From Eledone cirrhosa (Eukaryota), in contig OZ024746.1 of NCBI GenBank assembly GCA_964016885.1, positions 53,754,001-53,818,000 of the forward strand: a stretch of 64,000 nt of DNA, written 5' to 3'. Within the stretch, counting starts at the first letter, position 1; every line of letters starts with the position of its first letter. The position numbers and the translations under genes were made by a program. The notes under the pieces were generated by a model. That model was not told the origin of the DNA. It did no database searches and saw nothing but the letters and a program-made list of their open reading frames with translations. Below are positions 18,955-19,937 of the stretch, one piece after another.

Positions 18955-19937
18955 ATATAAATATGTATACGTACATACATATATGTATACAGACGTACAG
19001 TAGTATGTATATATATATATATACAAACATGCACACATATATATATGTACGTATGGATTCACCGAACATTTATTACAATGCCCGGTGTGTTTGTAAACAA
19101 ACATCCCGAATTAAGTCGTACAGTGTCTAGTAACCATCGTTGCTCATTTGTTCAACACGGACAAAGGAACGCTGTACTAGTTTCAAGCTTATTAGCTATC
19201 GTCAGCAACGTATACCTTCCTGCCAGATAGTTGAACGTCTGAAAGTATATACTTTCTATATGCATATTAACGGCTGAGCAGCCTAATTTGCATATCGAGT
19301 GAGTTAATCGGCCGGGGTACCGAAAACGATAAACGGAAAAAATGAAACGAAATTTCATTTCTCACCCTTATATATATATATATATATATACATACTACTG
19401 TACGCCTGTATACATATATGTATGTACGTATACATACTTATATTTAAGTAACAGCCATACTAAGAGTGAGAAATGAAATTTCGTTTCATTTTTTCCGTTT
19501 ATCGTTTTCGGTACCCCGGCCGATTAACTCACTCGATATGCAAATTAGACTGCTCAGCTGTTAATATGCATAAGGAAAGTATATACTTTCAGACGTTCAA
19601 CTATCTGGTAGGAAGGTATACGTTGCTGACGATAGCTAATAAGCTTGAAACTAGTACAGCGTTCCTTTGTCAGTGTTGAGCAAATGAGCAACGATGGTTA
19701 CTAGACACTGTACGACTTAATTCGGGATGTTTGTTTATAAACACACCGGGCATTATAATAAATGTTCGGTGAATCCATACGTACATATATATATGTGTGC
19801 ATGTATGTATATATATATATATATACATACTACTGTACGTCTGTATACATATATGTATCTACGTATACATACTAATATTTAAGTAACAGCCGTACTAAGA
19901 GTGAGAAATGAAATTTCGTTTCATTTTTTCCGTTTAT
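18955..19937. mobile_element. 435-bp hammerhead retrozyme-like family: a minus-strand monomer (18955-19368) and a plus-strand 1.25-mer (19391-19937)
   Basis: 19391-19502 is repeated at 19826-19937 (period 435). Hammerheads at 19170-19210 (-) and 19621-19661 (+) read cgttg-CTGACGA-tagct(aata)agctt-GAAA-ctag-TA-cagcg. Confidence 0.88.

What the first reader, a model, noticed from the sequence alone, without database searches (positions are those of the whole stretch)
18955..19937. Abundant 435-bp retrozyme-like family with a minimal hammerhead and permuted endpoints
Seen: at least eight pieces in the window (15858, 18955, 19391, 27460, 30131, 50448, 52015, 52503). The 19391 copy is a 1.25-mer and copies start at different phases of one circular map. 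Two loci are inverted pairs. The hammerhead is 41 nt with a palindromic ctag stem III and a palindromic agct stem II. Inference: a non-autonomous circRNA-derived element. Its internal TA/TG microsatellite may anneal to (TA)n targets, since several copies end at TA-rich points of the monomer.
Basis: partly seen in the sequence, partly recalled or inferred. Interest (0 to 1): 0.75.

Follow-up and report, generated by a model that had tools for sequence, protein, structure and literature searches.

The report
Non-coding Penelope-type hammerhead retroelement, fixed ends
This is a 435-base, protein-free repeat carrying a hammerhead-ribozyme motif, whose copies end at two fixed points next to TA microsatellites and sit in head-to-head pairs, so it is likely a small passenger element copied by a Penelope-like retrotransposon's enzyme, a new example of a known kind rather than a randomly permuted RNA circle.

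Summary
All eight pieces, the 435-bp period, both inverted pairs and the type I hammerhead (GUA site after 19656) are real. The endpoints are not permuted. Seven of 8 3' ends fall at two fixed sites 56 nt apart (0 of 20,000 circular simulations), 5' ends scatter, and all pieces fit one 570-nt linear map. Six of 8 3' ends abut (TA)n. In two public data sets the commonest contig break listed is the outer end followed by (TA)n. Two 3' ends (a 'tail'), 5' truncation and head-to-head inverted copies are the published insertion signature of Penelope-like elements (PLEs). The unit has no ORF, so it is best read as a non-autonomous PLE derivative of retrozyme size, probably moved by a Hydra-clade PLE. 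A Hydra-type ORF abuts one copy but has its own 3' UTR. Hammerhead stems covary with a 58%-identical sister family. A circular RNA intermediate is untested: no piece holds two hammerheads and no RNA run was listed. A third family in the window is a 2.25-mer with two hammerheads and the same insertion pattern. The scan noted a similar PLE-end pattern in a shark window.

The parts
19369..19938 (+). Longest copy (1.31 units): 78 nt of upstream partial unit starting in the (TA)n tract, one full unit, then the 56-nt tail; outer (B) 3' end
   Evidence: terminal 135 nt repeated at 96.3%
18951..19369 (-). Inverted, 5'-truncated partner copy (phase ~75 to 492), inner (A) 3' end; head-to-head with the long copy
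   Evidence: 97.1% to its partner over 140 nt versus 88-95% to other loci
19447..19881 (+). One 435-bp unit from A site to A site; non-coding, predicted chain of local hairpins
   Evidence: longest ATG-started frame 68 aa
19620..19662 (+). Type I hammerhead motif: stem I ACGTTG/CAGCGT, CTGACGA, U.U-closed stem II, GAAA, palindromic ACTAGT stem III; predicted cleavage after 19656; distal stem I predicted over 19596-19680
19169..19211 (-). Hammerhead motif of the inverted copy
19777..19866 (+). Predicted two-tier hairpin centred on the internal (TA)n, just upstream of 3' end A; same shape in the sister family
   Evidence: z -3.6; sister family z -4.9
19882..19937 (+). 56-nt tail between the two fixed 3' ends, with a near-palindromic hairpin
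   Evidence: loose end at the equivalent place 19502 followed by (AT)n in 50 contigs of X1 and 4 of X6
19538..19545 (+). ATGCAAAT octamer kept in all 4 pieces that span it and in the sister family; role unknown (promoter element or hairpin arm)
15859..16206 (+). 5'-truncated copy, A end, followed by long (TA)n; stem III mutated
27464..27515 (-). Tail-only fragment (phase 54-104), (TA)n 7 nt beyond its 3' end
30128..30492 (-). 5'-truncated copy with tail, B end, into (TA)n
50447..50688 (+). Copy truncated inside the hammerhead, A end into (TA)n; joined at its 5' side to the 3' UTR of a Hydra-type PLE
52013..52493 (-). Second long copy, starts in the (TA)n tract, about 79-nt internal deletion near its 3' end, B end into (TA)n
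52502..52774 (+). Inverted 5'-truncated partner, A end into (TA)n
   Evidence: 97.1% to its partner, but also 97.1% to the 15859 copy
49140..50261 (+). 5'-truncated ORF of a Hydra-type PLE (RT C-terminal part, CxCX5C linker, GIY-YIG without CCHH, CxxC and CxH); candidate class of mobilising partner, not shown to own this unit
37950..38612 (-). Sister family: 466-bp unit, homologous hammerhead, same A/B ends and head-to-head layout inside (TA)n

Best explanation
This is a protein-free 435-bp repeat with a hammerhead motif whose copies have two fixed 3' ends, scattered 5' ends and head-to-head pairs, and it is likely a non-autonomous Penelope-like retroelement copied in trans by a PLE reverse transcriptase-endonuclease, probably of the Hydra clade. 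Inferred cycle: (1) an RNA longer than one unit, with the hammerhead site intact, is bound through the hairpins near its 3' end; (2) the endonuclease cuts (TA)n or AT-rich DNA; (3) reverse transcription starts at one of two fixed sites flanking the tail hairpin (phase 56 or 112); (4) it stops at variable points, sometimes in the self-complementary internal (TA)n tract; (5) when both sides of the break are primed, one at each site, the two cDNAs are joined at their 5'-truncated ends and give a head-to-head pair. I put the template at about even odds between an uncleaved tandem transcript and a hammerhead-made circle; the genomic ends cannot tell them apart. Shown: copy map, end statistics, TA adjacency, lack of an ORF, hammerhead motif and its covariation, abundance. 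Inferred: every enzymatic step, the partner, transcription and cleavage.
For: 3' ends fixed and 5' ends random. The outer end is confirmed beyond the window: in X1 (8997 contigs laid) the largest of the 6 loose-end rows shown is 19502 followed by (AT)n, 50 contigs; 4 contigs in X6. 6 of 8 3' ends have (TA)5 within 8 nt against 7.6% of window positions (binomial 5e-6; the pieces come from only 6 loci). Both pairs are head-to-head, one copy A-ended and one B-ended. 12 of the 15 joint rows shown are opposite-strand joints. This is the PLE signature in print: 5' truncation, partial tandems, adjacent inverted 5'-truncated copy and tail on one end (PMC8557442; PMC3846280), and two adjacent RT start sites that define the tail (PMC11167929). 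No ORF: the tail region runs straight into the hammerhead region in 3 pieces. Hammerhead plus distal stem: 91.7% of cells paired, 8 pairs changed on both sides, 0 of 500 shuffles, slid controls 36-52%. The U.U closure of stem II occurs in 3 of the 6 Hydra hammerhead rows I saw in File S2 of PMC8557442. Hydra elements insert in (TA)n, and a Hydra-type ORF is in the window. Two more non-coding families in the window show the same layout.
Against: No autonomous element sharing this 3' end was found. The adjacent Hydra-type ORF continues into a different 3' UTR in its other copy (12192-13270), and none of four motifs from the unit and its hammerhead matched a Hydra or Naiad end in the supplement of PMC8557442 (text wrapped at 70 letters can hide a match). 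The 56-nt tail is longer than the 30-40 nt usually reported. Neptune-type ORFs are also in the window (clade name from recall) and Naiads also target (TA)n, so the Hydra assignment is indirect; the palindromic 2-bp stem III differs from the 4-bp stem III in the Hydra rows. Pair 1 is flanked by AT-rich DNA, not (TA)n, and has no clean target duplication. The both-side changes come from the single sister-family row, on a structure derived from this family. The inner 3' end could not be checked in reads (19391-19441 was skipped by the tool). The (TA)n could be added by RT rather than pre-exist.
Confidence: 0.78

Rival explanations
1. Retrozyme variant of the best explanation: source loci with two hammerheads release a 435-nt monomer that is circularised, and the PLE RT primes at the same two fixed sites on the circle and runs past one turn.
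For: 7 of 8 pieces read through the predicted scissile site and no 5' end lies at it. Longer-than-unit copies exist. The hammerhead and its long distal stem are conserved across families. A third family is a 2.25-mer with 100% identical units and two hammerheads. The unit size is near that of animal retrozymes (PMC7229834), and circular templates were proposed for PLEs (PMC4209133).
Against: None of the 8 pieces has two hammerheads in tandem, so none can release a monomer or form a cis dimer. Circular folding adds no helix across the junction. In a purified Poseidon PLE the unprocessed RNA was the dominant substrate and no RNA-seq reads ended at the cut site (PMC11167929). Only 1 of 9 frog retrozyme dimers cleaved in vitro (bioRxiv 10.64898/2026.07.22.740005).
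Confidence: 0.4
2. The pieces are ordinary pLTR debris of an autonomous coding PLE whose ORF lies outside the window.
For: PLE copies are mostly 5'-truncated ends. One copy abuts a PLE ORF. Reads show related sequence that diverges after 19684 (10,338 reads in X15) and before about 19570-19593, which may be sister or parent families. No genome was available to search.
Against: In 3 pieces the sequence after the A site runs directly into the hammerhead region with no ORF. The abutting ORF has its own different 3' UTR.
Confidence: 0.12
3. One reading: a circRNA reverse-transcribed from random phases, with ends set by annealing of the internal TA/TG tract to (TA)n targets.
For: The 5' ends vary; both long copies begin in the internal (TA)n tract (phases 414, 415).
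Against: 3' ends fixed at two sites (0 of 20,000) and repeated in public contigs; the outer end lies about 110 nt past the TA tract.
Confidence: 0.03
4. A foldback or MITE-like DNA element, or a SINE, with a chance hammerhead-like string.
For: The two paired loci look like long inverted repeats.
Against: Inversion breakpoints differ between loci, 4 pieces are single, the motif is far above chance and covaries. ARAGORN found no tRNA gene in the window (a weak test for SINE heads).
Confidence: 0.03

Closest known systems
Penelope-like elements (EN+), especially the Hydra clade (Craig et al. 2021, PMC8557442; Arkhipova et al. 2013, PMC3846280; Frangieh et al. 2024, PMC11167929)
   Same: 5' truncation, partial tandem, adjacent inverted copy head-to-head, tail on one end only, two adjacent 3' ends, (TA)n neighbourhood, type I hammerhead; U.U stem II closure as in 3 of 6 Hydra rows seen
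   Different: No ORF; the whole element is 435 bp; tail 56 nt rather than 30-40; hammerhead lies 225 nt upstream of the inner 3' end and has a palindromic 2-bp stem III
Animal non-LTR retrozymes (Cervera and de la Pena 2020, PMC7229834; Li, Clavereau and Pollet 2026, bioRxiv 10.64898/2026.07.22.740005)
   Same: Non-coding, low-GC unit of a few hundred bp with a canonical-geometry type I hammerhead, structured RNA, high copy number, proposed PLE dependence
   Different: No dimer or multimer with two hammerheads seen for this family; circRNA and cleavage untested; copies are dispersed, truncated and inverted rather than tandem arrays
Non-autonomous Chlamys PLEs such as MRC1 (PMC8557442)
   Same: Non-coding PLE passengers forming pLTRs and head-to-tail repeats
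   Different: Green algal, N-terminal-EN clade that lacks canonical hammerheads; 3' similarity to an autonomous partner is shown there and not here

Membership tests
Penelope-like element, non-autonomous derivative | Fixed 3' ends with variable 5' truncation | tested here: met
   outer end also
Penelope-like element, non-autonomous derivative | Partial tandem (pLTR-like) and adjacent inverted 5'-truncated copy | tested here: met
   2 of 6 loci show both
Penelope-like element, non-autonomous derivative | Optional 3' tail on one end only | tested here: met
   56 nt between A and B ends; in both pairs one copy has it; longer than the usual 30-40 nt
Penelope-like element, non-autonomous derivative | Type I hammerhead in the repeat | tested here: met
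   (motif and covariation only; activity not assayed)
Penelope-like element, non-autonomous derivative | 3' sequence shared with an autonomous PLE | tested here: inconclusive
   Not shared with the PLE ORF families in the window nor found in the supplement searched; no genome held
Autonomous PLE | RT plus GIY-YIG ORF between the pLTRs | tested here: not met
   Longest ATG-started frame in the 570-nt copy is 68 aa
Hydra clade as mobilising partner | Insertion into (TA)n | tested here: met
   6 of 8 3' ends; shared with Naiad and Neptune, so not diagnostic
Hydra clade as mobilising partner | Hydra-like hammerhead detail | tested here: inconclusive
   U.U closure shared with 3 of 6 rows; stem III differs
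Animal non-LTR retrozyme | At least two consecutive units each with a hammerhead | tested here: not met
   0 of 8 pieces in the window; rest of the genome not available, so the family may still have such loci
Animal non-LTR retrozyme | Non-coding unit of a few hundred bp, low GC, canonical type I hammerhead | tested here: met
   435 bp; 6/4/2-bp helices
Animal non-LTR retrozyme | Expressed as circular and linear monomer RNA | not testable with these tools
   No RNA holder listed; contigs cannot show RNA ends
Animal non-LTR retrozyme | Self-cleavage as monomer or dimer | not testable with these tools
   Needs an in vitro assay

The most novel reading that the evidence does not exclude
This family, its 466-bp sister and the 457-bp 2.25-mer family are circRNA retrozymes that a Hydra-clade PLE enzyme primes at two fixed, hairpin-defined sites. 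Their insertions would then record, in the DNA itself, that animal retrozymes are mobilised by PLE machinery from a circle, and that partial tandems and head-to-head pairs come from two cDNAs joined at 5'-truncated ends, at times through a self-complementary (TA)n tract. The junction at 50446 would be an RT template switch from this RNA to the Hydra mRNA.
Probability: 0.3. Interest if true: 0.6.

Novelty: new member of a known kind. Interest (0 to 1): 0.35.

Why it matters
That animal retrozymes ride on Penelope-like elements has been argued from co-occurrence and pLTR similarity (PMC7229834 passages; bioRxiv 10.64898/2026.07.22.740005, parts read). Here retrozyme-sized, ORF-free units carry the PLE insertion signature itself, in three families within 64 kb. 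A 435-nt RNA with two mapped start sites, a conserved hairpin pair and thousands of variant contigs is a compact substrate for asking how PLE tails, partial tandems and inverted copies arise and whether a circle is needed. The family takes 4.3% of this window, so it may be a notable share of 'unknown' repeat in this genome. As a class it is already known.

Tried and rejected
No whole genome is held, so no genome-wide end map. Rfam at gathering score: 0 matches. Pfam on 20 of the 101 frames of 100 aa or more: only a weak RVT_1 hit on 22060-23541. I first took the ORF at 49140-50261 as the owner of the repeat; rejected because its 3' UTR continues differently at 12431. I first thought it Naiad; rejected because its endonuclease is C-terminal with Hydra motifs. 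The pile-ups of read ends in X15 (19477, 19543, 19546, 19722) and the loose ends at 19477-19482 all lie at AATT sites and were treated as library restriction ends; the joint 19476/19546 likewise. Summed contig depth was not used as copy number or expression. One search used a structure mis-registered by two columns (43% paired); it was redone correctly. The constrained-energy line had a mis-set structure and is ignored. Unconstrained cofolding of two hammerheads did not give the dimer form; the ACUAGU duplex alone is -5.8 kcal/mol, so the dimer model is neither supported nor excluded. Circular versus linear folding: no junction-spanning helix. Target-site duplications: none clear outside (TA)n. 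Host identity: a paper search for the SINE motif found nothing; ORF homologues are 38-46% identical, the few named ones from coral, bryozoan and sea anemone. Searches for a prior description listed none for this family; subscription papers, Repbase and bioRxiv supplements were not visible. A search for the octamer-driven newt satellite 2 promoter (recalled) gave no passage I could cite.

Full report
Observation. In element orientation they span phases 140-491 (15859+), ~75-492 (18951-), 414-983 (19369+), 54-104 (27464-), 177-547 (30128-), 244-491 (50447+), 415-983 with a deletion of about 79 nt (52013-52493, -) and 209-491 (52502+). They total 2748 bp, 4.3% of the window, and 7 of them are 88-97% identical over a shared 140-nt stretch. 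The window is an AT-rich (35% GC), microsatellite-rich genome (167 tandem rows), animal by the PLE homologues. No genome is held. A SINE-like repeat near 52900 resembles octopus SINEs in my recall only; a paper search did not confirm it.

The ends are fixed, not permuted. Four 3' ends lie at phase 56-57 (site A), three at 112-113 (site B) and one at 104. Seven of 8 fall in two 7-nt windows, which 0 of 20,000 uniform circular simulations reach; the 5' ends reach 3 of 8, as do 11,802 of 20,000 (the window width was chosen after seeing the data, but the gap is large). All pieces fit inside the 570-nt longest copy. Six of 8 3' ends have (TA)5 within 8 nt, against 7.6% of positions. Laying four public data sets on 19391-19785 gave 8997 contigs in X1, 92 in X6, 21 in X4 and 67,804 of 12.5 million reads in the RAD run X15, so the family is abundant in organism A and present in organism B; neither is shown to be the window's species. 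Of 20 loose-end rows shown (448 not shown), the largest for X1 is 19502 followed by (AT)n in 50 contigs, with 4 in X6: this is site B. Site A lay at the edge of a stretch the tool skipped. Twelve of 15 joint rows shown (8 not shown) are opposite-strand joints at varied places. For those near 19453-19458 the short-side lengths (28, 27, 24, 23) match the distance to the AATT end at 19480, from which I infer head-to-head polarity; some may be ligation chimeras.

The pairs. Both are head-to-head, and in both a long copy that begins inside the element's own (TA)n tract and ends at B is joined to a shorter copy that ends at A. Partners are 97.1% alike, the highest values in the table, though 52502 is as close to 15859. 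Pair 2 sits between two (TA)n runs; pair 1 in AT-rich DNA without a clear duplication.

The hammerhead. 19620-19662 has stem I ACGTTG/CAGCGT, core CTGACGA and GAAA, a 4-bp stem II closed by U.U, a palindromic ACTAGT stem III and a GUA triplet. A structure-checking descriptor gives 6 hits in the window and 0.07 per shuffle. A sister family at 37950-38612 (466-bp unit, 316 of 545 columns identical, score 199 versus at most 30 in 200 shuffles) keeps the core and changes the stems in step: over 28 pairs including the distal stem I, 91.7% of cells pair and 8 pairs change on both sides (0 of 500 shuffles; slid controls 36-52%). Those changes come from the one sister row, and the structure was taken from this family's fold. 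Among the 40 variant rows shown (31 not shown), those between 19626 and 19656 are only N7 (19630) and loop II (19640), and 19623 and 19659, which face each other in stem I, both vary; this is suggestive only. The geometry is what PMC4209133 (parts 1-2 of 4 read) calls canonical for animals, not its minimal form. Cleavage was not tested. Seven of 8 pieces read through the scissile site and none starts at it, so the template was intact there: uncleaved or re-ligated.

RNA structure. The unit folds far better than shuffles (z -7.7; sister -10.1). Much of this comes from a two-tier hairpin just before site A and a hairpin in the tail, both kept in shape by the sister family. The body alone gives z -1.9 to -5.3 across three copies, against a background of 25 segments mostly between -3 and +2. 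Circular folding adds no helix across the junction.

The coding neighbour. 49140-50261 encodes the C-terminal RT, a CxCX5C linker and a GIY-YIG domain without CCHH but with CxxC and CxH. These are the Hydra-clade marks in section 11 of PMC8557442; full-length homologues show RW(K/R) and DKT. It ends 186 bp before the copy at 50447, but the same 3' UTR at 12190-12430 continues into about 840 bp of other sequence. The junction is therefore a nested insertion with deletion or a template switch, not a pLTR. Other PLE-type ORFs at 13534-14598 and 21164-23544 are only remotely related to it.

Comparison with print. PMC8557442 (passages, section 11, supplement searches and one part) describes PLE insertions as 5'-truncated partial tandems with an adjacent inverted copy and a 30-40 bp tail on one end, Hydra elements as (TA)n-targeted with hammerheads, and non-autonomous Chlamys elements. 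Three of the 6 Hydra hammerhead rows I saw share the U.U closure. PMC3846280 (passages) reports head-to-head as the usual inverted arrangement and reads it as self-priming on an antisense template, an alternative to my two-cDNA reading. PMC11167929 (parts 1-2 of 4) shows two adjacent RT start sites that define the tail, AT-rich cleavage, and unprocessed RNA as the main substrate. PMC7229834 (passages) defines animal retrozymes as tandem units with canonical type I hammerheads expressed as circles and names PLEs as candidate mobilisers. bioRxiv 10.64898/2026.07.22.740005 (parts 1 and 3 of 5, passages; supplements closed) links them to pLTRs by phylogeny and requires two consecutive hammerhead units. 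PMC13282606 and PMC6155905 (passages) added nothing specific. Searches listed no description of this family.

Verdict. The element works like a non-autonomous PLE (0.78) and fails the strict retrozyme test within this window, while resembling retrozymes in size, ribozyme and structure. A circular intermediate primed at fixed sites remains about 0.4; random permutation is rejected. The 457-bp family at 53612-55203, a 100% identical 2.25-mer with two U.U-closed hammerheads and an inverted partner inside (TA)n, is the better place to test the circle. New member of a known kind; interest 0.35.

Noticed in passing
window 53612-55203: Third non-coding family: 457-bp unit as a 2.25-mer (100% identical units, minus strand) plus an inverted 1.24-mer, both ending in (TA)n, with two 3' ends 107 nt apart. 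Type I hammerheads at 54225 and 53768 (-) and 54940 (+), with U.U closure, a long insert in stem II and a 4-bp stem III like published Hydra hammerheads. It meets the two-hammerhead retrozyme criterion and looks recent.
   Followed up: partly
window 37950-38612: Sister family with a 466-bp unit, G-C-closed hammerhead at 38279 (-), shared ATGCAAAT octamer and the same hairpins and A/B ends.
   Followed up: yes
window 13190-13245 and 48690-48737: The 3' end of the Hydra-type coding family holds a hammerhead-like fold with CAGAAGA in place of CTGANGA (U4 to A), with intact stems I-III in two copies.
   Followed up: partly
window 50722-50875: Near-perfect 154-bp palindrome of that family's last ~70 nt arranged tail-to-tail around (TA)n, the opposite of the usual head-to-head layout.
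   Followed up: no
window 50446-50447: Hydra-type ORF and 3' UTR joined to a copy of the 435-bp family inside its hammerhead: nested insertion or RT template switch.
   Followed up: partly
window 13534-14598, 21164-23544, 23678-23964, 40270-41067: Other PLE-type RT/GIY-YIG ORFs (Neptune-like by recall) and their hammerhead-like repeats, including an inverted pair at 40270-41067.
   Followed up: no
window 5386-5530, 11623-11802, 16635-16987, 17539-17800, 27837-28198, 35194-35670, 62178-62564: Many further palindromic loci, several bounded by (TA)n and some with CTGATGA cores: inverted PLE-type insertion seems pervasive here.
   Followed up: no
window 19684: A related family shares the hammerhead region and then diverges (10,338 reads in X15, 18 contigs in X1); a candidate sister or parent element.
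   Followed up: no
window 52897-53195, 37650-37813, 39052-39601, 60109-60216: Abundant SINE-like repeat, at 52897-53195 as an inverted pair; resembles octopus SINEs in my recall, unverified.
   Followed up: partly
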